From: Escherichia coli
GTDB taxonomy: Bacteria > Pseudomonadota > Gammaproteobacteria > Enterobacterales > Enterobacteriaceae
Reading direction: 5' to 3' (one strand)
Length of the DNA stretch: 23,806 bases
Assembly (NCBI GenBank): GCA_025544715.1
Contig: GCA_025544715.1_4109.5
The notes beneath the pieces are model-generated. The model was not told where the DNA came from. It saw only the letters and a program-made list of their open reading frames with translations, and searched no databases. Shown in pieces: positions 7,376 through 22,633 of the stretch. How positions within the stretch are numbered: the stretch's first letter is position 1; each line of letters begins with the position of its first letter. The translations under genes were made by a program, and so were the position numbers.

Positions 7376-7393
7376 CAAAAAAGAATAAAAAAA

Positions 7394-7953: not shown

Positions 7954-7960
7954 AAAGTAC

Positions 7961-7988: not shown

Positions 7989-8000
7989 GTTTTACATAGA

Positions 8001-8022: not shown

Positions 8023-8042
8023 CTAAATTAAGGAGTTTTATC

Positions 8043-8941: not shown

Positions 8942-8971
8942 ATGATTGATATTAATTTTAAGGGAGTCCCT

Positions 8972-10208: not shown

Positions 10209-10417
10209 AACGTCTTAGCAGCAGAGAATATTCTGCTATATTACATAAAGCTTTACCTGAGTTACAAAACATCGAGACGACCATCCCTGAGCCAACGCGA
10301 GGTGTACTGTTTACGGATTGTATGTTATTACACTTCATGGGAACTAATCACCAAGAATCTATAGTATCATCTCTCATCAACGCACTTAAACTTGAAATAA
10401 GAGACAAATGTAAATGA
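10205..10417 (+). CDS. family-1 paralog 7
   Basis: ATGA overlap; HFMGTNHQESIV motif. Confidence 0.7.
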   Translation: MKRLSSREYSAILHKALPELQNIETTIPEPTRGVLFTDCMLLHFMGTNHQESIVSSLINALKLEIRDKCK

Positions 10418-10671
10418 AACACTTGACAGACGATGAATATTCACTTAGAATTCGAAAGCTCACCCCAGAAGCAAGAGTAATCTACGATGACGATGCACTT
10501 TCATGGGTAGAGATGAAAGTTAAAGTTAATGAGCTATGGTTGCTGTACTTTCTGGGGACTAACTATCAAGAGAAATATTGCACCGATTACATTGAACAAC
10601 TAATGGAACTTATACAGGAAAAACTAAATGATCGAATTGTGGAAAAATATGAAAACTTTATCAAGCACTGA
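10414..10671 (+). CDS. family-1 paralog 8 with C-terminal extension
   Basis: ATGA overlap; YFLGTNYQEKY motif; usual junction stop is missing, giving a 13-aa extension overlapping the next gene. Confidence 0.65.
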   Translation: MKHLTDDEYSLRIRKLTPEARVIYDDDALSWVEMKVKVNELWLLYFLGTNYQEKYCTDYIEQLMELIQEKLNDRIVEKYENFIKH

Positions 10672-10900
10672 GTATCAAACTGCCCTATTCTCTTTACTAA
10701 ACACCCTTCGCAAGAACAATGAACTTTATCCTTCCCCTGAGAATGATGTAGTTAATGGAGACGTGCTCCTTCTTAAATTCATTGGAACTGATAAACAAGA
10801 TACCTTCACTGATCGTTATATCAATGCACTAAGAAACCTTGTAGCATATAAAACCCGCAAGGCCCAAAGAGAATGGAAGAGACAATGCGACAAAGACTAA
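10628..10900 (+). CDS. family-1 paralog 9
   Basis: KFIGTDKQDTF motif; family-like N-terminus begins at in-frame ATG 10649, so the true start may be 10649. Confidence 0.6.
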   Translation: MIELWKNMKTLSSTEYQTALFSLLNTLRKNNELYPSPENDVVNGDVLLLKFIGTDKQDTFTDRYINALRNLVAYKTRKAQREWKRQCDKD

Positions 10901-11136
10901 ATCACAAAATGTATTGTAAACTATTACAATCACTGGCACAGAAACACTATGATACAGTATCTGAAATATTACCCTATGATATCATGCGTTTAATTCATAG
11001 TGAGGCCGAGATGCTTGTACTGATGAGAGGGACTGATAAAACAGCAATAGCCAGATCGATTGAGCAATATATTGATGCACACTGCCAACACATGAGAACC
11101 GAAATCTGGAGGAAAGAGAATGAAACTCCTGAGTAA
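10873..11136 (+). CDS. family-1 paralog 10 (divergent)
   Basis: LMRGTDKTAIARSIEQYI keeps G-T-D and spacing but loses the Q; overlapping frame. Confidence 0.55.
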   Translation: MEETMRQRLNHKMYCKLLQSLAQKHYDTVSEILPYDIMRLIHSEAEMLVLMRGTDKTAIARSIEQYIDAHCQHMRTEIWRKENETPE

Positions 11137-11353
11137 TTATGAATATTATAGTCTGTTGCGAACTATACAAGCAAAAGTTTCTAGTATTTCTTTAAACAAA
11201 TCTATTGCACAAGAGGACAAATGTGTTATAATGGCTGAAATGAAGTTAGCTCTCTTCGTTGGAACAAACTATCAAAACATCTACACTGACGTATTGTTAG
11301 CCAGCCTACGCAACAAGGTGTTATCCAAAAATGAGAAAATTACAAGGTGTTGA
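11120..11353 (+). CDS. family-1 paralog 11
   Basis: MKLLSNYEYYSLLR N-terminus; LFVGTNYQNIY motif. Confidence 0.65.
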   Translation: MKLLSNYEYYSLLRTIQAKVSSISLNKSIAQEDKCVIMAEMKLALFVGTNYQNIYTDVLLASLRNKVLSKNEKITRC

Positions 11354-11549
11354 ATATATTAAGCTTCTGAAAACCTGTGCAAGCAGAAGGAGAAAGATTC
11401 AAAATGATAAAAGCATCTCTATTGACCTTAAGCACGCACTAGTAACTGAACTCTATGTAGGTGCACTCTTAGGCACAGACTATCAACAAATGTATGTAGA
11501 CATGTGGATTGAGGCTCTACTGAAAGAGGTTAAAAGTAAATGCAAATGA
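11331..11549 (+). CDS. family-1 paralog 12
   Basis: ALLGTDYQQMYV...KSKCK. Confidence 0.65.
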   Translation: MRKLQGVEYIKLLKTCASRRRKIQNDKSISIDLKHALVTELYVGALLGTDYQQMYVDMWIEALLKEVKSKCK

Positions 11550-11785
11550 TTAATTTAACTTATATTGAATATCAAAAACGTTTAAATGCATCCAGAGATA
11601 TAAGGATTCAAATATTCAATAACAAAAGATTGAAGCCTGATATCAGGAAAATCAAAATCATAGAAGCAGAGTTGTGCAACTTTTTAGGGACGAACTATCA
11701 GGCAGGTAAGGTAAAAAACTATCTTAGAGAACTCATGAATAGTATTGAAAATAAATGCAAGGATAATGAATATGAAAATGATTAA
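11540..11785 (+). CDS. family-1 paralog 13
   Basis: NFLGTNYQAGKV motif; in-frame ATG 11546 would give the usual ATGA overlap. Confidence 0.65.
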   Translation: MQMINLTYIEYQKRLNASRDIRIQIFNNKRLKPDIRKIKIIEAELCNFLGTNYQAGKVKNYLRELMNSIENKCKDNEYEND

Positions 11786-12011
11786 ATTATCTCAAGCAAA
11801 ATATAAAGAACGCCTGGTGAAAATTGCACCTGGACTTAATGAAATCCATCACGGAGAAGTCATTAAACATGGAAATAAGATGATTATGAAACTTGAGTTA
11901 AAGGTGGGTGCATTCATAGGAACAAACTATCAGGAGTATTATGTAGATGAATACATAATCGCACTTAAGAGATACATTGGAAGAAAACTATATCTACAAA
12001 CTAAAGAATAG
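11772..12011 (+). CDS. family-1 paralog 14
   Basis: ORF-track start 11745 is TTG; ATG 11772 follows AAGGA; AFIGTNYQEYYV motif. Confidence 0.6.
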   Translation: MKMIKLSQAKYKERLVKIAPGLNEIHHGEVIKHGNKMIMKLELKVGAFIGTNYQEYYVDEYIIALKRYIGRKLYLQTKE

Positions 12012-12040
12012 TATTGAAAATAAATGCGAGGATAATGAAC

Positions 12041-12304
12041 ATGAAAATGATTAATTTAAGTAAAGATGAATATACCGAGCGTATGGCAAAAATCTCAACT
12101 AAACGTAACACACTCTATCACAACCCAGAAATTCAACACAGTAAGAAAATGATTATGATGCGTGAGTTAAAGATGGGAGTATTCTTAGGAACAAACTATC
12201 AAGATACAGAAGTAAATCGCTTAATTTCGGAGTTACTAATGGAAATCAGAGGTAAGCTGTACTTTCATCAAATTACCCAACCACTGAGGTGTACTAAGAA
12301 ATGA
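12041..12304 (+). CDS. family-1 paralog 15
   Basis: ORF-track start 12014 is TTG; ATG 12041 follows GAGGA; VFLGTNYQDTEV motif. Confidence 0.6.
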   Translation: MKMINLSKDEYTERMAKISTKRNTLYHNPEIQHSKKMIMMRELKMGVFLGTNYQDTEVNRLISELLMEIRGKLYFHQITQPLRCTKK

Positions 12305-12516
12305 TCAACATCACATTGCAAGAAAGATTCATCCGAATCAACTATGCAATTACCAAATTAGATGCTACTATAGGATTCCAAAGTCTACCATATAAAACCA
12401 GATTGTTATTAGAGTGTGAAGCTAAGTTGGGTGTACTGTTAGGGACGCAACACCAACAACGATATGTGGAAATCTGGATTGACCTTTTAACCCAAAATAT
12501 ATATGAGAGAATGTAA
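12301..12516 (+). CDS. family-1 paralog 16
   Basis: ATGA overlap; VLLGTQHQQRYV motif. Confidence 0.7.
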   Translation: MINITLQERFIRINYAITKLDATIGFQSLPYKTRLLLECEAKLGVLLGTQHQQRYVEIWIDLLTQNIYERM

Positions 12517-12753
12517 ATGCAAAATGAAATGATATACTTAACGAATGAAGAATTTCAAGAGAAGATGTTAAAAACCAAAAACATTAATCTTAAGTTCGTT
12601 CCAAATCAATCAATATCTGAAGTATCTGCAAATGTATTGTTTCAGAAGCTACCATACTTTCTTGGAACTGATAAACAAGAATTTATGGTTCAAAATATGA
12701 TTGAACATCTTATGATGAGTATTAAGGAAAAAGTAAATGCAAAAACAAAATGA
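12517..12753 (+). CDS. family-1 paralog 17
   Basis: starts right after upstream stop; YFLGTDKQEFMV motif; N-terminus MQNEMIYLT shared with next gene. Confidence 0.65.
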   Translation: MQNEMIYLTNEEFQEKMLKTKNINLKFVPNQSISEVSANVLFQKLPYFLGTDKQEFMVQNMIEHLMMSIKEKVNAKTK

Positions 12754-13003
12754 AATGATATACTTAACACCTGCTGAGTTAACAGAAAGACTAGTTAAAT
12801 CCAGAAGATATACAAATCAACTTCCTCACAACCCAAACCAGACCCCAGCCGAAAGGAGTGCAGAAGTTTTATTCCAATCACTACCATACCTTCTTGGAAC
12901 TAATAGACAAGAGTATCATATCGAACGTATAATTAGATATCTTAAAATTACTATTCAGGAAAAGATACATGAACAAGAATATAAAAATCTTTACGGTCAA
13001 TGA
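12737..13003 (+). CDS. family-1 paralog 18
   Basis: YLLGTNRQEYHI motif; N-terminus MQKQNEMIYLT. Confidence 0.65.
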   Translation: MQKQNEMIYLTPAELTERLVKSRRYTNQLPHNPNQTPAERSAEVLFQSLPYLLGTNRQEYHIERIIRYLKITIQEKIHEQEYKNLYGQ

Positions 13004-13226
13004 ATATCATGATATTATAATGAAGACGAATATTGTAAATTCTAAAATTTCAAATACCAAGTTCATCCTTGAACATACATTAGAAGAACGACAATTGATA
13101 TTAGTTGAAGCAAAACTTCTTGCACTATTAGGTTCTAACTATCAAGACGAGTACATAAGAAAACTAATATACCTTTTAACTAAACATATCAGAAAAAAGA
13201 CACATGAAACACTTGACAGACGATGA
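12969..13226 (+). CDS. family-1 paralog 19
   Basis: ALLGSNYQDEYI motif. Confidence 0.65.
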   Translation: MNKNIKIFTVNEYHDIIMKTNIVNSKISNTKFILEHTLEERQLILVEAKLLALLGSNYQDEYIRKLIYLLTKHIRKKTHETLDRR

Positions 13227-13434
13227 ACATGGGCTTATAGTAATGGATGTAATCAACATCGAATACAAAAAGTTGATACGCTACCGTTGTTATGAAGATA
13301 AGCAACTAGTTCTAGCAGAACAGAAGTTGTTTCGACTCTTAAACACAAACTACCAAGCACAATACGAAGAATCGTATATGTACCTTTTGGCGAGGAAAGC
13401 AAAAAGAGATTATGAAAATTTTAAGCAAAGGTGA
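13204..13434 (+). CDS. family-1 paralog 20
   Basis: RLLNTNYQAQY motif; first 24 nt identical to paralog 8 (ATGAAACACTTGACAGACGATGAA). Confidence 0.65.
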   Translation: MKHLTDDEHGLIVMDVINIEYKKLIRYRCYEDKQLVLAEQKLFRLLNTNYQAQYEESYMYLLARKAKRDYENFKQR

Positions 13435-13639
13435 TTCAGTAATATTACTTATAGAGAGTTCAAGTCAATTCTTAAACATATCACTGTCTGATATAGATGA
13501 AGATGATAAAGAAGTACTGAGAGCAGATTTAAGAGTACTGTTACATCTCGGAACAAACCTACAAGAAAGATATGTAGAGTACTACATTGATGAACTTAAA
13601 GAATCAGTACTGAGAAAATGCAAATGCAAATGCGAATGA
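13412..13639 (+). CDS. family-1 paralog 21
   Basis: HLGTNLQERYV motif; C-terminus KCKCKCE encoded by AAATGC hexamer repeat. Confidence 0.65.
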   Translation: MKILSKGDSVILLIESSSQFLNISLSDIDEDDKEVLRADLRVLLHLGTNLQERYVEYYIDELKESVLRKCKCKCE

Positions 13640-13851
13640 TTACCGACGAAGAATACCTAACAATCATAAATGGACTGTTTTTGAAGCTCTTCGTCATTAA
13701 CACATCAGATATACCAGATATGGATAAAATTATTAAGAGAAATGAAATCTATGTTCTAGCTACCCTGGGAACTAACTATCAAGAATACGATATTAATGAT
13801 TATATTAAGACACTTAAACGAGCGATTGAACTAAAATGCCAAAACCACTAG
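13618..13851 (+). CDS. family-1 paralog 22
   Basis: ATLGTNYQEYDI motif; start may be ATG 13636 (ATGA overlap). Confidence 0.6.
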   Translation: MQMQMRMITDEEYLTIINGLFLKLFVINTSDIPDMDKIIKRNEIYVLATLGTNYQEYDINDYIKTLKRAIELKCQNH

Positions 13852-14051
13852 GAACAGCAGAATACATTGAACTCATGGGATTACACTTCTCATCCTTTCA
13901 GAAACTTATGCGAGAATCAAAGAATGATTTAGAATATACCATCAGAGGTTCAGATTTAAGAATGCTTCTCACCCTAGACACAGATTCCCAAGAGCGATTT
14001 GTCAATGAGCACATTAGAGCACTTTTAATGGAAATTCAAAGTAAACTATGA
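13836..14051 (+). CDS. family-1 paralog 23
   Basis: TLDTDSQERFV motif. Confidence 0.65.
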   Translation: MPKPLGTAEYIELMGLHFSSFQKLMRESKNDLEYTIRGSDLRMLLTLDTDSQERFVNEHIRALLMEIQSKL

Positions 14052-14263
14052 AGGTAATATCAAACCAAGAGTACTTGGCACTATTCAGAAAGAATAATCA
14101 TAAATTTATGGCACTTGATACAAGAACTGATATAGGGGAACTTGAAAAAAATCTTTTGCGTTCAGAGATGATAGTACTGACACTCTTAGGAACACAGCAT
14201 CAAGAAAGAACTGTTAATTCACACATAGAAATACTTAAGAAGCTTATACAGGAAAAGTTATGA
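14048..14263 (+). CDS. family-1 paralog 24
   Basis: ATGA overlap; TLLGTQHQERTV motif. Confidence 0.7.
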   Translation: MKVISNQEYLALFRKNNHKFMALDTRTDIGELEKNLLRSEMIVLTLLGTQHQERTVNSHIEILKKLIQEKL

Positions 14264-14481
14264 GAATCATAACACAACAAGATATGTTTAAGTTCACAAG
14301 GGATTATGCATCTGAATTTGATGCTATATTATCAAAAAGTTACAATGACCCTTATACAGAAGATGTACACTACAATGAATTATGGATGTATATACTTTTA
14401 GGTACAAATAAGCAAGAGCAAGCAGTACAGAAGTATTTGACAGCCTTAAGTACTGCTACTGCTAATGGAGTATGTGTTTAA
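14260..14481 (+). CDS. family-1 paralog 25
   Basis: ATGA overlap; ILLGTNKQEQAV motif. Confidence 0.7.
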   Translation: MRIITQQDMFKFTRDYASEFDAILSKSYNDPYTEDVHYNELWMYILLGTNKQEQAVQKYLTALSTATANGVCV

Positions 14482-14725
14482 AATGCTAGTACTGACAGAA
14501 TTAGAAATGGCAATGAGGTTTAATAGATTCAGACATTTACTTAAACCTATACAGAGGATTAAGTGCCCATTTGTAGTGAAACAGGTATTAATTTATGAGC
14601 ATAAGTTATTTGTATCATTAGGTACGAATGAACAAGAGTATTATTTGAAGTTGTACTTAATTACATTAATAGATTTAATTCACTATAAAACCAAACAAGC
14701 TAATAAAGAGAAATATGAAAACTAA
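14465..14725 (+). CDS. family-1 paralog 26
   Basis: VSLGTNEQEYYL motif; alternative start ATG 14483. Confidence 0.6.
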   Translation: MEYVFKMLVLTELEMAMRFNRFRHLLKPIQRIKCPFVVKQVLIYEHKLFVSLGTNEQEYYLKLYLITLIDLIHYKTKQANKEKYEN

Positions 14726-15059
14726 TATACAACTCAAGGTATATAAATCATTTGAACATACATATATCAAAAGTAGTCTATGTAGAGATGTAATGGATTA
14801 CAAGGGTAAGCCATTCACAATTACCTATGATTCTTATGTTAGTGATTTATATATATCATTTGTTAATTACGAAAATAAAATATACAAGCACGTTGATATT
14901 AAAGATTTAAGTACTTTATCACCAGAGGAATACTTTCAGGAATCATTAGTATGGGATTTAGAGTTTCCTATGCCATTAGTACATAAGATGATAGTACTAA
15001 TGAAAGAATCTAAACAGGAGCCTAATAGTGCTTATGAAGAACACATTATTGAGTATTAA
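14715..15059 (+). CDS. family-2 paralog (acidic-FQ motif protein, 114 aa)
   Basis: SPEEYFQESLVWDLEF motif; overlaps end of last family-1 gene. Confidence 0.65.
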   Translation: MKTNIQLKVYKSFEHTYIKSSLCRDVMDYKGKPFTITYDSYVSDLYISFVNYENKIYKHVDIKDLSTLSPEEYFQESLVWDLEFPMPLVHKMIVLMKESKQEPNSAYEEHIIEY

Positions 15060-15082
15060 GAGTACTGATAGTACAAATGTTC

Positions 15083-15111
15083 TTGACTGTACTTTTCATT
15101 ACTGATATAGT
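15083..15111 (+). promoter_or_regulatory. candidate sigma70-type promoter
   Basis: TTGACT (15083-15088), 17-nt spacer, TATAGT (15106-15111). Confidence 0.5.
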
Positions 15112-15140
15112 GCACCAACGTTAATCATAGGGTACAGATT

Positions 15141-15386
15141 ATGTTAAAATTTTTAAATTTCCTTATCGTCTTGTGTATTGTTCTTGGAATTGCACCGTTT
15201 GTATTAGCGTATCTGGATTCAGATGAAATGCAGAAGATGAATTGTACAAAGACAGGACAGAGTAGAGAAGAGACGGTTATGATACCCGTAACGGTTATTG
15301 TTAATAACATACCAATTACGAACATGATTCCTACCCTAACGACAACGTACCAGTACTCTTGTACAGATGGAGAGAGATGGAGATGA
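15141..15386 (+). CDS. small membrane or secreted protein (81 aa)
   Basis: hydrophobic N-terminus MLKFLNFLIVLCIVLGIAPFVLAYL; stop overlaps next start (ATGA). Confidence 0.5.
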   Translation: MLKFLNFLIVLCIVLGIAPFVLAYLDSDEMQKMNCTKTGQSREETVMIPVTVIVNNIPITNMIPTLTTTYQYSCTDGERWR

Positions 15387-15703
15387 AATTTAATATAGCA
15401 AAAACATCGAATGTATGTATATTTGGTTATGCAGATGAGTTAGGTGATCTTGACATTCTTTTGTACAAAAAGGATGGTGTTATGCATTTCAAGTACCAGG
15501 ATGAAGAGGCAGACAATTATCCTTTACCTAATTTAGTACAAATGCAGGAAGATGAATTATTCCAGTACAGCTTAGTATATGACATTGATATTTGCACGAT
15601 GCCAGTACTAATTAATATTCAAAAAGTGATGCTCGATGTGTTTGATAGGCTAATACAAGGCACACAAGGAAGAACCATATATGTCAATGTACAAGACAAT
15701 TAA
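15383..15703 (+). CDS. family-2 paralog (106 aa)
   Basis: ORF-track start 15359 is TTG; ATG 15383 overlaps upstream stop; QEDELFQYSLVYDIDI motif. Confidence 0.6.
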   Translation: MKFNIAKTSNVCIFGYADELGDLDILLYKKDGVMHFKYQDEEADNYPLPNLVQMQEDELFQYSLVYDIDICTMPVLINIQKVMLDVFDRLIQGTQGRTIYVNVQDN

Positions 15704-15745
15704 TCAAGAACATAAAACCTAAAATACAGGGAGTACAGAGAACGT

Positions 15746-16012
15746 ATGCAAAACACAAGGTATTATAAAAAAGTAAACCAATATTTGTACGCATCGAAGT
15801 ACAGGGATTTTTGTTTAAAGGGTGGTGATGAAGATTTTTCTTTGCGATTATCAGAATTTAATCTGTTATTTTATCTTGGTACATCGGAACAAGAAGAAAT
15901 GGCACAGAAATTTATCAAGCACCTTGAACAAAAAATTCATATGCAAATTTTGATGCTTAAGGTACATAATGAGATAAACAAATATGAATCCAACAATAGT
16001 ACAGGATCTTAA
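15746..16012 (+). CDS. family-1 paralog, dispersed copy (88 aa)
   Basis: LFYLGTSEQEEMAQKFIKHLEQKIH matches family-1 C-terminal block although located inside the family-2 zone. Confidence 0.6.
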   Translation: MQNTRYYKKVNQYLYASKYRDFCLKGGDEDFSLRLSEFNLLFYLGTSEQEEMAQKFIKHLEQKIHMQILMLKVHNEINKYESNNSTGS

Positions 16013-16373
16013 ACAAGTAATATTCCTTTTGAATACAAGAAGTTCCTTGTATACAGAGTTAAAAGATATTAATGCATTTTATCAGAATTTTGTAATTCAA
16101 GAGTTCAGTGATTTAATTACAGATGCATTATTTGAATTATCGGAAAAATACAAAGGAAAAGAGTTCAGTGTTAAGAATGTATTACGTCCTTTATCAAAGC
16201 GTATAATAAAATTAGATTGTTTCGAATTTGACAATAAAGATTTATTCGGTCATAATCTAAGTACAGCTTTATATTTTATTCCTGATTCAGACAAAAATCA
16301 TCCTATTCATTACGGATGGATTTTGTCTTACATAGAACAAGGAAAGGAGTATCCTATTAAATGGAACGATTAG
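15984..16373 (+). CDS. hypothetical protein (129 aa), possible degenerate family-2 member
   Basis: long ORF on coding strand; weak NAFYQNFVIQEF resemblance to the FQ motif. Confidence 0.5.
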   Translation: MNPTIVQDLKQVIFLLNTRSSLYTELKDINAFYQNFVIQEFSDLITDALFELSEKYKGKEFSVKNVLRPLSKRIIKLDCFEFDNKDLFGHNLSTALYFIPDSDKNHPIHYGWILSYIEQGKEYPIKWND

Positions 16374-16521
16374 GGCGATTAGATTATTACACAATTAATA
16401 CAAATTATTTGTTGAGTAATATAAAATCCGATTACAAAATATGGATAAAGAACAGAGATAGTATGTGTTATGAATTTTATTTAGATTATGCCATCAAACG
16501 ATTTTTAAGAGAAGAACATTA

Positions 16522-16722
16522 ATGCACACACCGCACAAAGAGCACACAAAGCACAAAAATACAAAAACGATAAATGTTTTAAATGATTCTTTATTGGTGA
16601 GTATAAATTTATATTATAAAATTCATTTAAATGGTGGTATTGAAAATTTTAGTTATTATTTGAGTGCAATATCGCAAGAGCATTTAATATACCAAGATCA
16701 TTTATTGCACCCGAATCCATAA
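16522..16722 (+). CDS. doubtful small ORF (66 aa)
   Basis: no convincing RBS; begins in CA-rich low-complexity DNA; kept only because it is on the coding strand of a 350-bp gap. Confidence 0.25.
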   Translation: MHTPHKEHTKHKNTKTINVLNDSLLVSINLYYKIHLNGGIENFSYYLSAISQEHLIYQDHLLHPNP

Positions 16723-16730
16723 GGCGAATT

Positions 16731-17276
16731 ATGAATGAGATAGAATTATTAGCACACAAGATTAGTACAATAATGCTTATCCTCAATAACAACCATCCTA
16801 TATCGCAGATAGATGGAATCCTGAGTCAGAGGACAGGTGGTAGTTTATATTTGACATTAACAGAGGTTATCGCAAGGAATTACATTGATATTGAAATCGA
16901 GAACAGTGATGCATCAGGAAAGGTTGATGTAGGTGCATTAATCAGTTCAAATCCAGTATCAGCATCACCATTGACACGAAATGTAAGTACAGGATTCGAA
17001 GGGTATTTGTGGTACAATACCAATGATGATTATTTTATATATCAGCATTCAAATACAAATTATGATGAAGACAAATTTAAGTTCATAGACCCTTATGATG
17101 AAGCTGAAGTATTTCAAAAATCATTAATCACAAAACCGCATGAGATGATGTATCTAATGTTATTCAGTACAATGCATTTGAATCCATTAATTAAAGGTTT
17201 AAAATTTTATATTCAATTGAATTTAGTCCATGTAGTTTATGATTTATTAATGCAAGGATATAGTTATGAAGTATAA
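16731..17276 (+). CDS. family-2 paralog, long form (181 aa)
   Basis: DEAEVFQKSLI motif; C-terminus ...VYDLLMQGYSYEV parallels C-terminus of 17887-18462. Confidence 0.65.
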   Translation: MNEIELLAHKISTIMLILNNNHPISQIDGILSQRTGGSLYLTLTEVIARNYIDIEIENSDASGKVDVGALISSNPVSASPLTRNVSTGFEGYLWYNTNDDYFIYQHSNTNYDEDKFKFIDPYDEAEVFQKSLITKPHEMMYLMLFSTMHLNPLIKGLKFYIQLNLVHVVYDLLMQGYSYEV

Positions 17277-17577
17277 AATGCTTTATACATTAACATTAAT
17301 ATATGTAGAATTAGAATCCGATTCAGATGCATGGAATTTAGTTAAAGAGGTCGATACAAATCAATGGTACATGGCAAATTTAGACGCACAGGTTGTTACG
17401 GATTATTTTATAGATTTTAATACATTATCTGAAGAAGAATTTTTCCAAATGCAATTGGTGGTTGACATGTACGGGCATGACATGGTAACATTACGAAATA
17501 TACAGAAAGCCGTTAATGAAATCCAAAGCAAGAAAGATTATGAGGTAGGAGCGTATTATGACATCGACGTACAATGA
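17266..17577 (+). CDS. family-2 paralog (103 aa)
   Basis: LSEEEFFQMQLVVD motif; close paralog of next gene. Confidence 0.7.
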   Translation: MKYKMLYTLTLIYVELESDSDAWNLVKEVDTNQWYMANLDAQVVTDYFIDFNTLSEEEFFQMQLVVDMYGHDMVTLRNIQKAVNEIQSKKDYEVGAYYDIDVQ

Positions 17578-17588
17578 GTACAATAGTT

Positions 17589-17906
17589 ATGAAGTATAAA
17601 ATGCTTAATACAGTATCAGGGATATATGTAGAATTAGAATCCGATTATTCAGATGGATGGAATTTTATTAAACGCCACGATATAAATACATGGTACATGG
17701 CACATTTGGATAATGACGTAATAATAGATAATTTTGTCGATTTTAATACATTATCAGAAGAAGAATTTTTCCAAATGCAATTTGTGCTTGATACAAATGG
17801 ATTTGATTTGCTATTATTAAGGAATATTCAGAAAGCGGTTAATGAATTCATAATCCAAAATAATTCAGGTAAAATGGGGATGTTCCATGATCTGGAAGTA
17901 CAATGA
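17589..17906 (+). CDS. family-2 paralog (105 aa)
   Basis: start placed at ATG 17589, homologous to the start of 17266; LSEEEFFQMQFVLD motif. Confidence 0.65.
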   Translation: MKYKMLNTVSGIYVELESDYSDGWNFIKRHDINTWYMAHLDNDVIIDNFVDFNTLSEEEFFQMQFVLDTNGFDLLLLRNIQKAVNEFIIQNNSGKMGMFHDLEVQ

Positions 17907-18462
17907 AAGCAACGATTACAATGAAATTCAGTACACCTACGCTAATGCAATCCTTATGGGACAAAAATTAGCTTGTATTGTTGCAGCCTTATATAATGCA
18001 CAGAAAGATTACAAGCGTCATATCCACAAATGTATTGGTATTATTCCATCTAAGTACAATACATATATTGCGTGCACGAGTCATTTTGATAAACGATTCA
18101 ATACACCTGATACCCCAAATGCCAGTAGTGTTATTGGTCTTTTGGATTTCGCACCTGGTGCTGTTATTGGAAAGAATGATTTAGAGTACGCATGGTATAA
18201 TAAAAATTCCCCATTAGTAATGGTAAAATATGATACAGAAACGAACAAAACAATAGAGTACAATACATATAAATCAGAGGAAGAATTTTTCCAAGGTTCA
18301 TTGCTTGTGCCAGTGCGTTTGTTGTTTTATAATGTCCTTATTAGTACAGTACACAATAGTCCATTACACAAGAATCACAAAATTAATTTCAATTTTTGTG
18401 CTTATGCGATTGATGGTGTGTATGAGTGTTTAATGGAGGTATTGAGTTATGAAGCTGAATAA
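17887..18462 (+). CDS. family-2 paralog, long form (191 aa)
   Basis: SEEEFFQGSLLV motif; C-terminus ...VYECLMEVLSYEAE. Confidence 0.65.
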   Translation: MIWKYNESNDYNEIQYTYANAILMGQKLACIVAALYNAQKDYKRHIHKCIGIIPSKYNTYIACTSHFDKRFNTPDTPNASSVIGLLDFAPGAVIGKNDLEYAWYNKNSPLVMVKYDTETNKTIEYNTYKSEEEFFQGSLLVPVRLLFYNVLISTVHNSPLHKNHKINFNFCAYAIDGVYECLMEVLSYEAE

Positions 18463-18790
18463 TACATTTGATATTAATAAGTTAAGAGAATGGTTTTATA
18501 GTATTGAAATTGAAGCCATCCCGTATCATAGATATGAACAATATAATTTAACCAGTATTGATATCCGTGAGTTGTACGCGTATTATCAAAGTGCATTAGA
18601 GATGCATAAGTTATTTTTGAGTACAGATTTTGTTCTAAATTACAATTTTGAGGAATTTAATAATTATAATTTAGTACAGAAATATGTAGTAGCAAAGTAC
18701 ATGTACCTTCAAGGAATTACAAGTACCGTGGAATTCAATACAGTCCTTGCTTTAGTTGAGGTAATTTTATGCAGTACATGTATGATTTAG
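18449..18790 (+). CDS. hypothetical protein (113 aa), possible degenerate family-2 member
   Basis: ATG overlapping upstream gene end; ELYAYYQSALEMH weakly motif-like. Confidence 0.55.
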   Translation: MKLNNTFDINKLREWFYSIEIEAIPYHRYEQYNLTSIDIRELYAYYQSALEMHKLFLSTDFVLNYNFEEFNNYNLVQKYVVAKYMYLQGITSTVEFNTVLALVEVILCSTCMI

Positions 18791-19275
18791 AGTTCAGTTT
18801 AGATGCAGCATTTAAATATGTTCACAAGATAGAAACAATATACAGTACATTATGTGCAATACAATCAGTATCATCTGAGTTTGATGTTGGTGAAAAATAT
18901 CAGGTATGGAATAATACATTTCTAAACAAAGAACGTTGCTCTACGGGGTTTAATATTTTAACATTTAATCCCAGCAATTGTTACCCAGAGAAGCATGAAC
19001 GTTATCCGAATGACGACATGTGGTTTGATTACACAAAAGATGGTGATATGTCATCCCTTGTAGTTCCTGATGATTTTAATGCCGAAGATTTAACGAAAGA
19101 GTGGTGGTTTCAACAGAATTTAGTACACGATGATATTGATTTATTTTTTTATGTAGTATTTAAAATGCTTTACCACAACAATATATTAAAAGATAGTGTG
19201 TTTTTTTCATGTCTATATATTGATGATTTGTACAATGAAATCCAAATCAACATGCCCATAACGCCTGTATCGTAA
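18769..19275 (+). CDS. family-2 paralog (168 aa)
   Basis: TKEWWFQQNLVHDDIDL motif. Confidence 0.65.
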   Translation: MQYMYDLEFSLDAAFKYVHKIETIYSTLCAIQSVSSEFDVGEKYQVWNNTFLNKERCSTGFNILTFNPSNCYPEKHERYPNDDMWFDYTKDGDMSSLVVPDDFNAEDLTKEWWFQQNLVHDDIDLFFYVVFKMLYHNNILKDSVFFSCLYIDDLYNEIQINMPITPVS

Positions 19276-19290
19276 GATATGGGCTTTTTT
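19255..19290 (+). terminator. possible terminator (CCCATA / TATGGG stem plus T-run)
   Basis: 6-bp stem with large 17-nt loop followed by CTTTTTTCGTTTT; large loop lowers confidence. Confidence 0.35.
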
Positions 19291-19300
19291 CGTTTTGGTA

Positions 19301-19329
19301 TTGACAAAGAAGTGCAAAGCTGTTATCAT
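19301..19329 (+). promoter_or_regulatory. sigma70-type promoter
   Basis: TTGACA (19301-19306), 17-nt spacer, TATCAT (19324-19329). Confidence 0.6.
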
Positions 19330-19357
19330 GTGTAATCATTTTAAAGGAGAACATATA

Positions 19358-19870
19358 GTGAGTTTCATAATCCCAAGTACATACGAAGATGCATCAAGTG
19401 CAGTTCATAAGATTCATTATATTTTTAATTTAATTATTAGATCTGCAAAAATTAAAATGTATGCACCTCTTGTGACAAATAATCGAAATGAAGAAATTTT
19501 TATTAGCACAGACAAAATTATTTTTCCATATTTCAATGAAGATAGATTGTGGTTCATACATTTAGCTGCATTACAAAAATATAAGATGTCAATTCGTAAT
19601 AATTTGGTTATACCGTTATATCATCCCGATATTGGAGAGGATGAATATTTTCAGTACAGCACAGTACACCGCCATGAAGATATCTTTGCTGCTATGCTTA
19701 TTGCTAAATTGAACACCGTTGATTTGGAGCAGTACAAATACAATAATAAATCATGTAAGATCATAATCCCTGCATTCATAGCTCTTTATGATTATGTGGT
19801 GCATAACAAAAAAGATGATACATATGCTTTCAATGAAGAGTATTTGGATTTTTTTAAGGAGAACATATGA
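19358..19870 (+). CDS. family-2 paralog (170 aa), GTG start
   Basis: ORF-track start 19295 is TTG inside the promoter; GTG 19358 lies 8 nt after AAGGAG; GEDEYFQYSTVH motif. Confidence 0.55.
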   Translation: MSFIIPSTYEDASSAVHKIHYIFNLIIRSAKIKMYAPLVTNNRNEEIFISTDKIIFPYFNEDRLWFIHLAALQKYKMSIRNNLVIPLYHPDIGEDEYFQYSTVHRHEDIFAAMLIAKLNTVDLEQYKYNNKSCKIIIPAFIALYDYVVHNKKDDTYAFNEEYLDFFKENI

Positions 19871-20394
19871 GCAGTGAAGTAGAGAAAGCAATGACATTCA
19901 ATGAAATTGGTACATTTAAAGATAAGATCATTGATTGTCTTGAATACATGATTTGTAGTAATATCGAGAGTATTGAGATATTTAACAAGAGAAATCGCTC
20001 TTATCATATGATGTACATTGCAAACAATAATGGTATCCTTCCATTTATTTCGGATAGTACAATATGGTACGCATGTGATACGAAAAAATACACAGTAGGT
20101 TCACATGTATTTGAGACACATTATGATCTAATTATTCCTGAGCATTGTATGCAAGAAGAAGAATATTTTCAAATGCAATGTGTACATGCACCATTAGTGT
20201 TGTTTAGTTTATATATTGTACCTTATATCACCAAATGTGTTCATGAGAATAAAGCTCCGTGGAATCATGAATTTGTATCATTGAAGTTATTGTATAATGT
20301 ATTAGCAGAATATTATGATTACAGGCACAATGGTACAATCAGCGATGTATGGGATTTCGAAAATTTAAGGGTGAAAACATACACAGGGGCATAA
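19867..20394 (+). CDS. family-2 paralog (175 aa)
   Basis: ATGA overlap; QEEEYFQMQCVH motif. Confidence 0.7.
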   Translation: MSSEVEKAMTFNEIGTFKDKIIDCLEYMICSNIESIEIFNKRNRSYHMMYIANNNGILPFISDSTIWYACDTKKYTVGSHVFETHYDLIIPEHCMQEEEYFQMQCVHAPLVLFSLYIVPYITKCVHENKAPWNHEFVSLKLLYNVLAEYYDYRHNGTISDVWDFENLRVKTYTGA

Positions 20395-20395
20395 C

Positions 20396-21010
20396 ATGAG
20401 CAGAATGAAAATGAATGATTTGATGCAGTACAGTAAAATTGCTATTCCAGTGCTTAATAAAGTGCTGGATGCATTCATTGCCAAATACCCTGAGAATTCA
20501 GTGTTATGTATTCCATTTAGTGTTCCAGATAAAGATGATATATTCCAAGTGAATGTCAGTACACGTGGTATTACATTACAGCAGAAATACATGGATACGG
20601 AATATTATGGAATAAAGTTGGATTCAGTACAGGGTTCAAAATCAGCCTATGATTTTTTTGTTCCTAATAATATAGAGTCATGGGAAACAAACATTTCAAA
20701 GAAAGATGAAAATGATGTTCCTATTAGTGGTGTGTTCAACAATAAAGTTTTTTATTATTACGAAACCGACAAATTCCCTGAAGAGTTATATTATAATTCA
20801 GAAATGAATGAAGATGTAGATGCATTCATGTTTCAATTATCGTTAGTACATGATATCATTGATGTTCAAGAGTTAAGAGCAGAAATCAATTTAGCTAAAG
20901 AATTATCGGACATGCTGCCACCGTTTAGTATGCTTTTTTGTGAAGGAGGTTATTTTTCAAAAGAAGTGTTTGAACATTTCGTAGATGTTGTAAAAGGGTT
21001 GGATATATAG
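20396..21010 (+). CDS. family-2 paralog (204 aa)
   Basis: EDVDAFMFQLSLVHDIIDV motif. Confidence 0.65.
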   Translation: MSRMKMNDLMQYSKIAIPVLNKVLDAFIAKYPENSVLCIPFSVPDKDDIFQVNVSTRGITLQQKYMDTEYYGIKLDSVQGSKSAYDFFVPNNIESWETNISKKDENDVPISGVFNNKVFYYYETDKFPEELYYNSEMNEDVDAFMFQLSLVHDIIDVQELRAEINLAKELSDMLPPFSMLFCEGGYFSKEVFEHFVDVVKGLDI

Positions 21011-21011
21011 T

Positions 21012-21206
21012 ATGCTTATAGTTGATATTAAACAAAAATACCGTAAGTTTGATTGGTTCACCGACAGTTTCCAGCTTGAATTATTACATTTGAATATCTG
21101 TGAAACATTATGTGCAGAAACACAAGATGAATTAGATGATAGAGTGATGAACATAGTAATGCTTTCTTGCTTTAAACATTTTGGTTATTTTTTCGGACAG
21201 AATTGA
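21012..21206 (+). CDS. hypothetical protein (64 aa), possible degenerate family-2 member
   Basis: FTDSFQLELLHLNI weakly motif-like; tightly packed between neighbours. Confidence 0.5.
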   Translation: MLIVDIKQKYRKFDWFTDSFQLELLHLNICETLCAETQDELDDRVMNIVMLSCFKHFGYFFGQN

Positions 21207-21214
21207 GGTATAAA

Positions 21215-21730
21215 ATGCATCAACACAAGCATCATTCATATGATTTTGCAATTAACATCATGAAGTTCATTCGAGCGTTGGAGGATGGTAAGCTTAGTCA
21301 TAAGTACAGGGAAGAGGGTAACAATTGGTTCAGAAATGATTCCGAGTTCAGTTGTCATAAAATCGTGTATAGTAATCATTACAGGGCCAATTACCTACAA
21401 GATGTAGTGATGTGTTTTGAATATGTGTTGCAGTTCAGGGGTTCAATCCAAGATGAGTTGATGGAGAACATGTACATCCGATACCTTCCAATGCTCAAAG
21501 ATGAAAATGTAGCATTCAATTCGATATACCAACGAGTTCGTGAAATAGAGTGCAGGGATATATTAGATACAGAAGAATCGTATTTCCAGCAATCCCTGAT
21601 TTATGCACCTGATTTATTACAGGTACATAATTTGTTTAATACATTACGTCAGAACATCAGTACAGACATATTTTTGTCATTATCGGATTATGATACATTT
21701 GTCAAAGATTTAGAGGAAATAGGTTTATGA
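21215..21730 (+). CDS. family-2 paralog (171 aa)
   Basis: ORF-track start 21203 is TTG; ATG 21215 follows GAGG; TEESYFQQSLIYAPDLL motif. Confidence 0.65.
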   Translation: MHQHKHHSYDFAINIMKFIRALEDGKLSHKYREEGNNWFRNDSEFSCHKIVYSNHYRANYLQDVVMCFEYVLQFRGSIQDELMENMYIRYLPMLKDENVAFNSIYQRVREIECRDILDTEESYFQQSLIYAPDLLQVHNLFNTLRQNISTDIFLSLSDYDTFVKDLEEIGL

Positions 21731-22071
21731 GTAGGTTTTCAGTTTATATAGTAAACGTCAGTAAAGATGGTAGTTTAATTGAATTTGATGTAGTTGATAA
21801 CAATGATAATTCATATGGTATTAAGGTACAAGACAATGATGTACAGTTCAGTACAAGGACAAATTTTGAGAATCCAGTCCAAGTTCCGAATTTCATAGAA
21901 GATGAAGCTGCACGATTCCAATACGAAACGGCATATGACAATGTACATATGCATATTATTATGCAAACGAGTTTAGTTCAATTAGTTCCTTTGTTCAGAC
22001 AAAATATATATGTACATGAAGTGTCGATTAATGGCATTCAAAGTTCCGTTTTGTTCGGTACAAATATGTAA
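21727..22071 (+). CDS. family-2 paralog (114 aa)
   Basis: ATGA overlap; EDEAARFQYETAYDNV motif. Confidence 0.65.
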   Translation: MSRFSVYIVNVSKDGSLIEFDVVDNNDNSYGIKVQDNDVQFSTRTNFENPVQVPNFIEDEAARFQYETAYDNVHMHIIMQTSLVQLVPLFRQNIYVHEVSINGIQSSVLFGTNM

Positions 22072-22081
22072 GGAAAGTACA

Positions 22082-22633
22082 ATGAGTTCAATGAGTTTAT
22101 TAGATACATTAGAAAAAGACAGAAGTGCCATTAAGCGTTTAAAAGAGCAAGTACAGAAGATTGTATACAACGTTGATAAGTTTGAGGTTCCCGGAAGATT
22201 TGGTGATATTTCCCATACGGAGATCAAATCCCTTAAGTCAGATTTGTTGATTAAAAATAAAAATGCGTTGATTTTAGTTTTGAGTTCAGATATGATGGGG
22301 GCAACACATAGTTATAATGCCGTATCAGTGCGTTCCGAGTGTGAAGGTATATATCTATCACAGGGTTTCAATAGTGAGACACAGGTTGGGTTTTGTGATG
22401 CTGTACATGACCCTATGAAGTTCACGAGAAGTGAAGCCCAAGCGTTATTAGAGCTATCAGACGAGAGTTTGTTTCAGTACAGTACAATGTATGACAATGA
22501 TAAGCTTCGTTGTATGTACGCTGTGAAGCATTATACACATGAGTTCTCTGGATTTGCATACCTTTTAGTTAGAACCAATACCTCATATATTGATATGTTA
22601 GAAGATTACATCGATAAAGTTGTTAATGTATGA
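22082..22633 (+). CDS. family-2 paralog (183 aa)
   Basis: ATG 22082 follows AAGGA (ORF-track start 22010 lies inside upstream gene); SDESLFQYSTMYDND motif. Confidence 0.6.
   Translation: MSSMSLLDTLEKDRSAIKRLKEQVQKIVYNVDKFEVPGRFGDISHTEIKSLKSDLLIKNKNALILVLSSDMMGATHSYNAVSVRSECEGIYLSQGFNSETQVGFCDAVHDPMKFTRSEAQALLELSDESLFQYSTMYDNDKLRCMYAVKHYTHEFSGFAYLLVRTNTSYIDMLEDYIDKVVNV

What the first reader, a model, noticed from the sequence alone, without database searches (positions are those of the whole stretch)
17255..17610. Recently duplicated gene pair in family 2
Genes 17266-17577 and 17589-17906 are close paralogs (MKYKMLYTLTLIYVELESD versus MKYKMLNTVSGIYVELESD; both contain FNTLSEEEFFQMQ and LRNIQKAVNE), and the start context ATAGTTATGAAGTATAAAATGCTT is repeated at 17259 and 17582. 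Identity is far higher than between other family-2 members, so this is a young duplicate.
Basis: seen in the sequence. Interest (0 to 1): 0.5.

Follow-up and report, generated by a model that had tools for sequence, protein, structure and literature searches.

The report
Tandem paralog pair in jumbo coliphage
Two neighbouring small genes of unknown function in a 121Q-like giant E. coli phage really are each other's closest relatives, but they are long-diverged versions found side by side in nine phages rather than a fresh duplication, which is an ordinary product of gene shuffling in a variable phage region.

Summary
Genes A (17266-17577) and B (17589-17906) are 61% identical in protein and about 75% in DNA. 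The next-best family-2 pair is 31%. An exact 24-nt start context occurs at 17260-17283 and 17583-17606, one base off the stated coordinates.

The 'young duplicate' reading does not hold:
- Synonymous divergence between A and B is about 0.62, against 0.10-0.21 between orthologs of each copy.
- Eight other Asteriusvirus genomes carry the same A+B tandem, with A 95-99% identical, and the same junction scar (16 nt of the downstream gene's 5' end, then AGTT).
- The repeated start context is conserved in every allele of this slot across the genus, so it says nothing about age.

The closest relative, 121Q, differs by a clean 323-bp indel bounded by the 24-nt repeat and keeps only B. A-type, B-type and other alleles each occur alone in other phages. 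The junction scar is undecayed, which suggests two already-diverged alleles were joined or swapped by recombination at conserved gene boundaries.

Both proteins are acidic, fold confidently as four to five β-strands, two helices and a last strand, evolve under purifying selection, and have no characterised homolog. This is ordinary phage mosaicism.

The parts
16731..17276 (+). Upstream flanking gene X1 (181 aa, phrog_19795). Its last codons (..Y S Y E V *) overlap the start of gene A by 11 nt. Its conserved 3' end supplies the left boundary sequence.
   Evidence: 97% aa identical to 121Q gp349 but only 55% or 46% identical to the genes that precede A in the other two-copy phages.
17254..17258 (+). 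AAGGA Shine-Dalgarno-like sequence 7 nt upstream of gene A's ATG. B has no equivalent, only a GAG.
   Evidence: read directly from the sequence.
17260..17283 (+). Copy 1 of the exact 24-nt direct repeat ATAGTTATGAAGTATAAAATGCTT (6 nt upstream plus the first 6 codons of A).
   Evidence: 2 matches, 0 expected; family D15 (64 nt, 91% identity, spacing 323).
17266..17577 (+). Gene A, 103 aa, pI 4.1, phrog_33987. Predicted fold: four strands, two helices, a last strand.
   Evidence: (pLDDT 89.5, pTM 0.82). Orthologs 95-99% aa identical in 8 phages, omega 0.03-0.21.
17260..17582 (+). The 323-bp unit (gene A plus spacer) that is the only large difference from phage 121Q across the aligned stretch 16601-19300. 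In 121Q the two 24-nt repeats are merged into one.
   Evidence: register switch inside the repeat, no other scar; flanks 97.5% identical.
17578..17588 (+). A-B spacer GTACAATAGTT, the junction scar. GTACAAT is the remnant of the 5' end of the downstream gene X2. AGTT is the last 4 nt before a small-gene start (the X-gene 3' end). The AT at 17583-17584 is shared microhomology.
   Evidence: The other two-copy phages have the longer form AAGCAATGAGTACAAT|AGTT, which matches the first 16 nt after B's stop in vB_Ec-M-J and WPEC3 at 16/16. The window form equals that form minus 9 nt (GTGAAAGCA).
17583..17606 (+). Copy 2 of the exact 24-nt direct repeat.
17589..17906 (+). Gene B, 105 aa, pI 4.4, phrog_33987. 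An alternative start at ATG 17574 gives MSTIV+B (110 aa) and overlaps A's stop as ATGA.
   Evidence: pLDDT 84.3, same topology with one extra short strand. 98% aa identical to 121Q gp350, 79-80% to the second copy of the other two-copy phages.
17887..18462 (+). Downstream flanking gene X2 (191 aa, phrog_19795, paralog of X1). Its first 20 nt overlap the end of B. Its 5' end carries the slippage-prone TACAATGA repeats.

Best explanation
A and B are two long-diverged versions of one small, fast-evolving accessory gene. They sit in a variable, non-structural region of an Asteriusvirus (121Q/PBECO4-like) jumbo coliphage.

Origin of the tandem (inferred). One unequal recombination event joined position +16 after a small-gene stop (inside the 5' end of X2) to position -4 before a small-gene start (the X 3' end), with 2 nt of microhomology. 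That made a repeat unit of about 332 bp, which is 323 bp in this window after a 9-nt slippage deletion. The event predates the split of the nine genomes that share it. Because the 16-nt junction remnant is undecayed while the genes differ by dS ~0.6, the two copies were most likely already different alleles when joined, for example during co-infection. Alternatively, one copy was later replaced by allelic exchange. Either way they did not diverge in place.

Later copy-number and allele changes (inferred). These occur by homologous recombination at the conserved gene-boundary sequence, which consists of the X-gene C-terminal codons, AAGGA, and MKYKML. The 323-bp indel between this window and 121Q is one such event.

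What is shown: both genes are maintained by purifying selection, and each is predicted with confidence to fold as an acidic ~12 kDa domain of strands and helices.

What is inferred: they act as non-virion proteins that interact with the host, in takeover or counter-defence, and carrying two variants broadens the set of targets covered. Their biochemical function is unknown.
For: Identity of the phage: 95.7% nt to 121Q over 16700-19300; 34 Asteriusvirus-like records match.

Distribution: 8 records hold A-type (95-99% aa) plus a B-type copy. 26 hold one copy that is only 54-60% identical to A.

Alleles and tree: A, B1, B2, C (PBECO4 type) and D (ph0011) alleles. The NJ tree is (C),(A,((B1,B2),D)).

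Divergence: dS(A,B)=0.62. A orthologs 0.10-0.14 with omega 0.03-0.21. B1 vs B2 0.21 with omega ~0.5.

Junction scar: shared by all two-copy genomes and 16/16 identical to the X2 5' end of vB_Ec-M-J and WPEC3. Under neutral decay at the genes' synonymous p-distance (~0.35-0.41), the chance of 16/16 identity is about 1e-3 to 2e-4 (my calculation).

Indel against 121Q: a clean 323-bp indel bounded by the 24-nt repeat.

Single-copy alleles: A-type (90% aa) alone between X0 and X2 in L019; C/A chimeric alleles in L020 and L021; B1 alone in 121Q, L016 and L017.

Shuffling at the boundary: A lies downstream of three different X genes (X1 in the window, X1' in vB_Ec-M-J and others, X0 in Ecwhy_1). The ~30 nt before the start are nearly identical in all.

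Proteins: pLDDT 89.5 and 84.3 with the same topology; pI 4.1 and 4.4.

Non-virion: none of gp348-gp548 of phAPEC6, which include the orthologous gp453-465, were detected in virion mass spectrometry (PMC7247149).

Recombination machinery: these phages encode a RecA-like protein and an SSB.

Early-region context: repeated sigma70-consensus promoter cassettes upstream in the window. In fEgEco12 the locus lies about 10 kb inside the left 21-kb terminal repeat boundary.
Against: - The direction of the 323-bp indel (loss in 121Q or gain here) is unresolved. The window is the unrooted outgroup to 121Q and L016/L017.
- The undecayed 16-nt scar could instead be kept identical by conversion against X2, or by constraint. 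Its last 11 nt (ATGAGTACAAT) carry the start codon and first codons of B's possible MSTIV extension.
- Synonymous divergence between A and B is low in codons 1-39 (dS 0.13) and high in the rest (1.3). The difference is marginal (Fisher p=0.04 in the window, 0.59 in vB_Ec-M-J). It is not explained by simple joining of old alleles.
- There is no expression, interaction or phenotype data for any member. Every function statement is inference.
- The exact combination X1-A-B1-X2 is seen only in this window, and I could not check it against sequencing reads.
Confidence: 0.6

Rival explanations
1. An old in-place tandem duplication in a common ancestor, followed by divergence of the two copies where they sit and by reciprocal losses: A lost in the 121Q lineage and in ph0011, B lost in L019.
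For: A and B(+D) group together against the C alleles in the midpoint-rooted NJ tree. The tandem is shared by nine genomes with a single junction scar. Each loss is easy, because of the 24-nt repeat. The low synonymous divergence in the 5' third could be a trace of common descent or of conversion between neighbouring copies.
Against: The 16-nt non-coding scar after A is 16/16 identical to the X2 5' end, although the genes have dS 0.6 overall and 0.9-1.3 in the adjacent 3' part. B is slightly closer to the single-copy ph0011 allele (64-65% aa, 77% nt) than to A (61%, 75%). At least three independent losses are needed.
Confidence: 0.27
2. One reading: a recent duplication of one gene within this phage's own lineage.
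For: The genes are adjacent, on the same strand, share an exact 24-nt start context, and are the closest pair in the window. The nearest sequenced relative, 121Q, has one copy.
Against: dS is 0.62 and only 75% of nucleotides are identical. Window A is 98% nt identical to the A of vB_Ec-M-J and Ecwhy_1, and window B is 99% nt identical to 121Q gp350, so each copy has its own orthologs elsewhere. The spacer matches the vB_Ec-M-J-type X2 5' end rather than the window's own X2. The 24-nt context is conserved in all alleles of the genus.
Confidence: 0.03
3. An assembly chimera. A mixed sample holding a 121Q-like and a vB_Ec-M-J-like phage was mis-joined through the shared 24-47-nt boundary repeats, which created an X1-A-B1-X2 order that no phage has.
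For: This exact combination occurs in no other record. A and B of the window are not on record as exact proteins, and the junction pattern has no match in the viral, genome or metagenome contig collections. Both joins fall inside short exact repeats.
Against: Window A differs from every known A by about 2% nt and carries a private 9-nt spacer deletion. The flanks differ from 121Q by about 2.5%. This fits one independent lineage rather than two known genomes spliced together. The repeats are short (24-47 nt) relative to usual read and k-mer lengths. Mosaic combinations of the same modules are common in finished genomes.
Confidence: 0.05

Closest known systems
Escherichia phage 121Q gp350 and the A+B pairs of Ecwhy_1 (Ecwhy1_417/416), vB_Ec-M-J (EcMJ_093/094) and fEgEco12 (g098/g099); PHROG phrog_33987
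   Same: Direct orthologs. Window B is 98% aa identical to 121Q gp350. Window A is 97-99% identical to the first copy in the two-copy phages. The gene order X-A-B-X2 and the junction scar are the same. Both window genes match phrog_33987 over full length, with E=6e-41 and 1e-61.
   Different: The window combines a 121Q-type X1, B1 and X2 with an A gene otherwise seen only next to X1' or X0 and a B2 allele. Its spacer is 9 nt shorter, which puts an ATG in ATGA overlap with A's stop. All these proteins are annotated only as hypothetical.
Modular shuffling in the hyperplastic regions of T4-type phages, mediated by short repeated cassettes called PeSLs (Arbiol et al. 2010, PMC2839356; PMC4122927)
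   Same: Insertions, deletions and replacements of small non-essential genes between close relatives are bounded by short conserved repeated sequences that act as recombination sites. Here the 323-bp indel is bounded by a 24-nt repeat, and different alleles are joined at one boundary.
   Different: PeSLs are intergenic promoter-plus-stem-loop cassettes. The boundary here is coding sequence plus a ribosome-binding site (X C-terminus, AAGGA, MKYKML), with no promoter or terminator at the junction. PeSL-like promoter cassettes do occur elsewhere in the window at 1-8100. Mini-circle formation was not examined.
The 'family 2' paralogs of the same window and of RaK2-like jumbo phages (phrog_13866, phrog_19795 and others) that carry the L-S-E-E-E-F/Y-F-Q-x-S-L-V motif
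   Same: They share the motif, are mostly acidic, lie on the + strand and are tightly packed in tandem arrays. Structural matches exist to uncharacterised proteins of slurp01, RaK2 and fHe-Yen9-04, with Foldseek TM 0.55-0.75.
   Different: Outside the ~16-residue motif the similarity is weak: 31% identity or less, and hhalign probability 75% over 16 columns against the X family. A profile search found only 22 cluster representatives at E up to 1e-3 among 1.84 billion proteins.
Polo-box domains and the p32/Mam33 acidic proteins (a fold resemblance only)
   Different: Sequence identity is 4-11%. Foldseek against the PDB finds nothing at E up to 0.001 (best 0.43), and the sequence profile finds no PDB chain. 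No polo-box phosphopeptide-binding residues were examined. This is a generic resemblance, not evidence of family membership.

Membership tests
PHROG phrog_33987 (unknown function; orthologs of 121Q gp350) | Full-length match to the family profile | tested here: met
   A: E=5.9e-41 over residues 1-103 of a 108-position profile. B: E=9.8e-62 over residues 1-105.
'Family 2' motif superfamily of the window | Presence of the L-S-E-E-E-F-F-Q-x-x-L-V motif ahead of a second helix | tested here: met
   Both genes carry DFNTLSEEEFFQMQ. E58, F60, Q61, V65 and D67 are invariant in alignment A3. Weak matches to phrog_13866 at E=4e-5 and 2e-4.
'Family 2' motif superfamily of the window | Homology to the larger members (X type, phrog_19795) beyond the motif | tested here: inconclusive
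   hhalign of A3 against A4 gives probability 75% and E=2.6e-5, but over only 16 aligned columns.
Recent (young) tandem duplicate | Adjacent, same strand, with a recognisable duplication junction | tested here: met
   Start-to-start spacing is 323 bp. The scar consists of X2 5' sequence followed by AGTT.
Recent (young) tandem duplicate | Near-identity at synonymous sites, well below the divergence between orthologs | tested here: not met
   dS(A,B)=0.62, against 0.018-0.21 between orthologs.
Recent (young) tandem duplicate | Duplication private to this lineage, with relatives carrying one ancestral copy | tested here: not met
   Eight other genomes have A+B. Single-copy genomes carry B-, C-, D- or A-type alleles.
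PeSL-type modular shuffling (T4 hyperplastic regions) | Indels or replacements between close relatives bounded by short conserved repeats | tested here: met
   The 323-bp indel against 121Q switches register inside the 24-nt repeat. A follows three different X genes at one conserved boundary.
PeSL-type modular shuffling (T4 hyperplastic regions) | The repeat is a sigma70 promoter plus a terminator stem-loop | tested here: not met
   The boundary is coding sequence plus AAGGA. There is no terminator-like site in the stretch around A and B: the nearest reported ones are at 14308-14324 and 19263-19284. Only sub-consensus promoter matches occur, and fewer than in shuffled sequence (43 against 62.8).
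Polo-box / p32-Mam33 folds | Significant structural match | tested here: inconclusive
Acidic phage DNA-mimic or anti-restriction proteins (Ocr, ArdA, Arn type) | Strongly acidic small protein | tested here: met
   pI 4.09 and 4.38; net charge -12 and -10.
Acidic phage DNA-mimic or anti-restriction proteins (Ocr, ArdA, Arn type) | Sequence or fold homology to a known member, or a demonstrated inhibition activity | tested here: not met

The most novel reading that the evidence does not exclude
The slot between the X genes is an arms-race locus. Its acidic ~12 kDa products each neutralise a variant host factor or defence protein. Asteriusviruses widen their coverage by stacking alternative alleles in tandem and swapping them through the conserved coding boundary (X C-terminus, AAGGA, MKYKML). 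That boundary would then act as a built-in recombination cassette, a coding-sequence analogue of the T4 PeSLs. The excess of amino-acid over silent change in the N-terminal sheet (omega ~1.5 in codons 1-39) would reflect selection for new specificities.
Probability: 0.2. Interest if true: 0.55.

Novelty: new member of a known kind. Interest (0 to 1): 0.3.

Why it matters
As it stands, this is a clean and well-resolved example of how the accessory regions of jumbo phages change. Alleles of a small gene are stacked, lost and exchanged at short conserved gene boundaries, and the junction scar allows the joining event to be dated separately from the divergence of the genes. It also corrects an easy misreading: a repeated start context and a 61% identical neighbour do not mean a recent duplication.

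If the products prove to be host-takeover or counter-defence factors, the natural set of alleles (A, B1, B2, C, D and chimeras), in one or two copies, would be a ready-made panel for mapping their specificity. No function is known for this family today.

Tried and rejected
- **Wider family.** The word-indexed search found 8 clusters. The exhaustive profile search found 22 representatives, all small proteins with the same motif.
- **Other genomes with the window's exact arrangement.** Exact-protein look-ups of A and B (110-aa form) were not on record. The junction pattern GACGTACA-N(0-9)-ATGAGTACAATAGTTATGAAGTA had 0 matches in viral, genome and metagenome contigs.
- **Polarising the 323-bp indel.** Flank phylogeny of the window, 121Q and L016/L017 gives only an unrooted three-taxon tree, so this is unresolved.
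- **Gene conversion between A and B.** The deficit of synonymous changes in the 5' third is marginal (p=0.04 in the window, 0.59 in vB_Ec-M-J). I report it as unexplained, not as evidence.
- **Non-coding RNA or tRNA in the window.** None found.
- **Literature.** No paper on this protein family turned up. Searches returned genome descriptions only.
- **Protease-site idea.** I considered that the E-E-E-F-F-Q-x-S motif might be a protease site because, from memory, it resembles TEV/3C sites. I set it aside because the motif is predicted to be a buried helix with pLDDT ~90. It was not tested.
Full report
**1. What is there**

The window is AT-rich (30-42% G+C) and packed with small + strand ORFs. 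The stretch 16700-19300 is 95.7% identical to Escherichia phage 121Q. It matches 34 records in the phage collection (30 Escherichia, 4 Salmonella), most of them classified as Asteriusvirus jumbo phages of 310-386 kb.

Gene A is 17266-17577 (103 aa) and gene B is 17589-17906 (105 aa). B's open frame begins at ATG 17574, which overlaps A's TGA as ATGA. The two proteins are 61% identical (64/105, E=1e-43), and codon-aligned DNA identity is 75%.

The 24-mer ATAGTTATGAAGTATAAAATGCTT occurs exactly twice, at 17260-17283 and 17583-17606. None is expected by chance.

Among 15 'family 2' ORFs the next-best pair is 31% identical over 94 aa. All other pairs share little beyond a ~16-residue motif. A/B is also the closest pair among all 72 + strand ORFs of the window.

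**2. The pair is not young**

A tblastn search with A finds 34 records. Eight have two places: an A-type gene 95-99% identical to the window's A, plus a B-type gene. These are Ecwhy_1, vB_Ec-M-J, Turkey3, CMSTMSU, EC.P1, fEgEco12, WPEC3 and WPEC5. The other 26 have a single copy only 54-60% identical to A.

I extracted the genes from 15 related loci. The slot holds distinct alleles:

| Allele | Where found | Relation |
|---|---|---|
| A | window and the two-copy phages examined | 97-100% nt identical among them |
| B1 | window B, 121Q gp350 | 99% nt identical to each other |
| B2 | second copy in the other two-copy phages | 88-89% nt, 79-80% aa to B1 |
| D | ph0011 | 64-65% aa to B |
| C | PBECO4, TH47, BF17, SD-1_S14, UE-S1, A4 | 53-60% aa to A and B |

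A neighbour-joining tree gives (C),(A,((B1,B2),D)).

Nei-Gojobori estimates:

| Comparison | dS | dN | omega |
|---|---|---|---|
| A vs B | 0.62 | 0.25 | 0.40 |
| A orthologs | 0.10-0.14 | 0.004-0.020 | 0.03-0.21 |
| B1 vs B2 | 0.21 | ~0.10 | ~0.5 |
| window B vs 121Q gp350 | 0.018 | 0.008 | 0.44 |

So the split between A and B is several times older than the radiation of the phages that carry both genes. Each copy has its own orthologs, and both are under purifying selection.

The repeated start context is not a mark of youth either. The ~30 nt before the ATG and the first five codons (ATG AAG TAT AAA ATG) are nearly identical in the alleles of the genus examined, including alleles with dS ~0.9-1.1 to A and B. 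Those first 11 nt are also the last codons of the overlapping upstream gene.

**3. Anatomy of the junction**

In vB_Ec-M-J the 16 nt after A's stop (AAGCAATGAGTACAAT) are identical to the 16 nt after B's stop. The latter are the first codons of the downstream gene X2. After A they are followed by AGTT-ATG, which is the end of an X gene followed by a small-gene start.

The tandem was therefore made by joining position +16 after a small gene to position -4 before a small gene, with AT as shared microhomology. The unit is 332 bp.

The same scar occurs in six of the other two-copy genomes examined; CMSTMSU differs at one base, and WPEC5 was not fetched. This points to a single origin.

The window's spacer (GTACAATAGTT, 17578-17588) equals that scar minus 9 nt (GTGAAAGCA). 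The same deletion also turns A's last codon from CAG to CAA and creates the ATGA overlap. What remains matches the vB_Ec-M-J-type X2 rather than the window's own X2, which reads AAGCAACGATTACAAT.

**4. Relation to 121Q and direction of change**

Against 121Q the flanks are 97-100% identical per 100-nt block. The only large difference across the aligned stretch 16601-19300 is a 323-bp gap covering window 17260-17582. The 121Q sequence follows the A-side register up to the end of the 24-nt repeat and the B-side register from its start, with no other scar.

Two further 121Q-like contigs (L016, L017) also have X1-B1-X2. On 4.3 kb of flanks the window is the odd one out: 83 private sites, against 25 for 121Q and 51 for L016/L017. 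Without a root this cannot tell a deletion in the ancestor of those three from an insertion here.

Either way, the event is recombination across the 24-nt repeat.

**5. Old duplication, or joined alleles?**

Three results argue that A and B did not diverge in place after a duplication.

- First, the non-coding 16-nt scar is 16/16 identical to its source in X2, while the genes have a synonymous p-distance of ~0.41 in vB_Ec-M-J, and ~0.52 in the adjacent 3' part. At such rates 16 unchanged sites have a probability of about 1e-3 or less (my calculation).
- Second, each type also occurs alone. An A-type allele (90% aa) lies between X0 and X2 in L019. B1 is alone in 121Q. D is alone in ph0011. C/A chimeras are alone in L020 and L021.
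- Third, modules are freely recombined. A follows three different X genes (X1, X1', X0) that are only 46-56% identical to each other. C follows two different X genes. BF17, which is 91.4% ANI to fEgEco12 (PMC13070987), has C where fEgEco12 has A+B2.

I therefore favour (confidence 0.6) unequal recombination that brought together two already different alleles, or a later replacement of one copy. I give an old in-place duplication with reciprocal losses 0.27.

One result fits neither model neatly. Synonymous divergence between A and B is 0.13 in codons 1-39 but 1.3 afterwards, while amino-acid divergence is similar in both parts (0.20 against 0.28). The contrast is only marginally significant (Fisher p=0.04 in the window, 0.59 in vB_Ec-M-J).

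**6. The proteins**

A and B match phrog_33987 (unknown function) over their full length. Nothing reaches threshold in Pfam or NCBIfam, and nothing matches in PDB sequences.

An exhaustive profile search of 1.84 billion representatives returns 22 proteins, all about 90-130 aa with the same L-S-E-E-E-F/Y-F-Q-x-S-L-V motif.

AlphaFold2 models are confident:
- A: pLDDT 89.5, pTM 0.82. Strands 2-7, 11-15, 23-28 and 33-38; helices 56-65 and 73-88; strand 97-101.
- B: pLDDT 84.3, pTM 0.80, with the same order of elements plus one extra short strand.

The conserved motif forms the first helix.

Both proteins are strongly acidic, with pI 4.1 and 4.4.

The larger flanking genes X1 and X2 are paralogs of each other (phrog_19795). 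They share with A and B only the motif.

**7. Context and likely role (inference)**

The virion proteome of phAPEC6 contains no product between gp347 and gp549. The orthologous block is gp453-465 (PMC7247149). The proteins are therefore not detected in virions.

In fEgEco12 the locus lies at ~31.6 kb, about 10 kb beyond the 21-kb left terminal repeat.

The first 8 kb of the window carries families of repeated promoter-like cassettes with near-consensus sigma70 hexamers. For the related phage CBB, the gene-dense region of small genes with RpoD-like promoters was proposed to be the early, host-takeover region (PMC5259590).

A and B sit in a run of overlapping or abutting + strand genes. This run ends at a terminator-like hairpin at 19263-19284, where UE-S1 has an annotated terminator at the equivalent place.

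Small, acidic, non-virion, fast-evolving, copy-number-variable genes in such a region are most simply read as accessory proteins that interact with the host. This is inference; no member has been studied.

**8. Comparison with known systems**

The mechanism of change resembles the modular shuffling described for the hyperplastic regions of T4-type phages. There, recombination between short repeated PeSL cassettes causes insertions, deletions and replacements between close relatives (PMC2839356).

The difference is that the repeat here is a coding gene boundary with a ribosome-binding site, not a promoter-terminator cassette. The phages encode a RecA-like protein and an SSB, which could carry out such exchanges.

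**9. Verdict**

This is a real tandem paralog pair, correctly spotted. It is not a recent duplication. It is a shared, polymorphic arrangement of two long-diverged alleles in a mosaic region of a known phage genus, encoding proteins of a known but uncharacterised family. It is ordinary phage genome dynamics, documented here in unusual detail.

Interest 0.3. Novelty: new member of a known kind.

Noticed in passing
window 8942-14725 (plus 15746-16012): An array of about 27 consecutive + strand genes of 66-96 aa with a shared (L/F)-G-T-N-Y-Q-E motif (phrog_4148 for the one member tested). 24 of the 27 carry the motif pattern. The most similar members are neighbours: 11745/12014 at 54%, 9569/9781 at 52%, 12517/12737 at 47%. 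This suggests repeated local duplication.
   Followed up: partly
window 42-8047 (e.g. 2527-2584, 5253-5310, 6109-6166, 7952-8009; 2982-3033, 5559-5610; 2396-2488, 5120-5212, 7378-7470): Three families of repeated 50-97-nt intergenic cassettes carry near-consensus sigma70 promoter hexamers (TTGACA/TTGCAT ... TATAAT). One family (93 nt, 3 copies) has a G+C-rich stem-loop (GGGATTGACTCCGGTCAGTCCC) embedded in the promoter. They resemble the PeSL promoter-stem-loop cassettes of T4-type phages.
   Followed up: no
window 16731-17276 and 17887-18462; L003 2722-3862; L005 1868-3008; L004 2451-3008: The genes flanking A and B are themselves paralogs (phrog_19795), and their copy number varies between relatives. 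One X gene precedes the small-gene slot in the window, 121Q and Ecwhy_1. Two precede it (X0 and X1') in vB_Ec-M-J, fEgEco12, BF17 and TH47. All end in the same ...LMQGYSYEV* boundary.
   Followed up: partly
window 17895-17925 (B stop / X2 5' end), compared with L001, L003, L005, L016, L019: The overlap between the small gene's end and the X2 start contains repeated TACAATGA / GCAATGA units. It differs between relatives by 9- and 18-nt indels, which change the X2 N-terminus (KYNESNDYNEIQ, KYNESNEYNEIQ, TYNEYNEIQ, or a shorter form in 121Q). It looks like a slippage hotspot.
   Followed up: partly
L020 2001-2315, L021 710-1018 (proteins P0004, P0003): These single-copy alleles look chimeric. The N-terminal third resembles the C (PBECO4) type (..TKDMIYVELE..GWNLIYSSSSGWYM) and the C-terminal part resembles the A type (..YGHDMVTLR.IQKAVNEFKSKNNYEVGAYYDLEVQ). 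In both loci X2 is missing and the small gene abuts the homolog of window gene 18449-18790.
   Followed up: partly
window 17266-17385 vs 17589-17711 (codons 1-39 of A and B): Silent divergence between A and B is far lower in the first 39 codons (dS 0.13) than in the rest (1.3), while amino-acid divergence is similar. This gives omega ~1.5 in the N-terminal sheet. It is marginally significant and unexplained.
   Followed up: partly
window 19263-19329: A terminator-like hairpin with a T run (19263-19284) is followed by a promoter-like site (TTGACA-17-TATCAT with an upstream TG, 19301-19329). This is a probable transcription-unit boundary downstream of the A/B block. UE-S1 has an annotated terminator at the equivalent position.
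   Followed up: no
family-2 ORFs across window 14715-22633: From memory, the shared motif E-E-E-(F/Y)-F-Q-x-S resembles the recognition sites of TEV NIa and picornaviral 3C proteases (ENLYFQ/S, LFQ/G). In the models it is a well-packed helix, so it is probably a structural core motif. This was not tested.
   Followed up: no
L007 (Escherichia phage CMSTMSU, MH494197.1) 1871-4202: In this UNVERIFIED_ORG record the B copy and several X genes are broken by frameshifts, and few CDS are annotated. These are probably sequencing errors rather than real pseudogenes.
   Followed up: no
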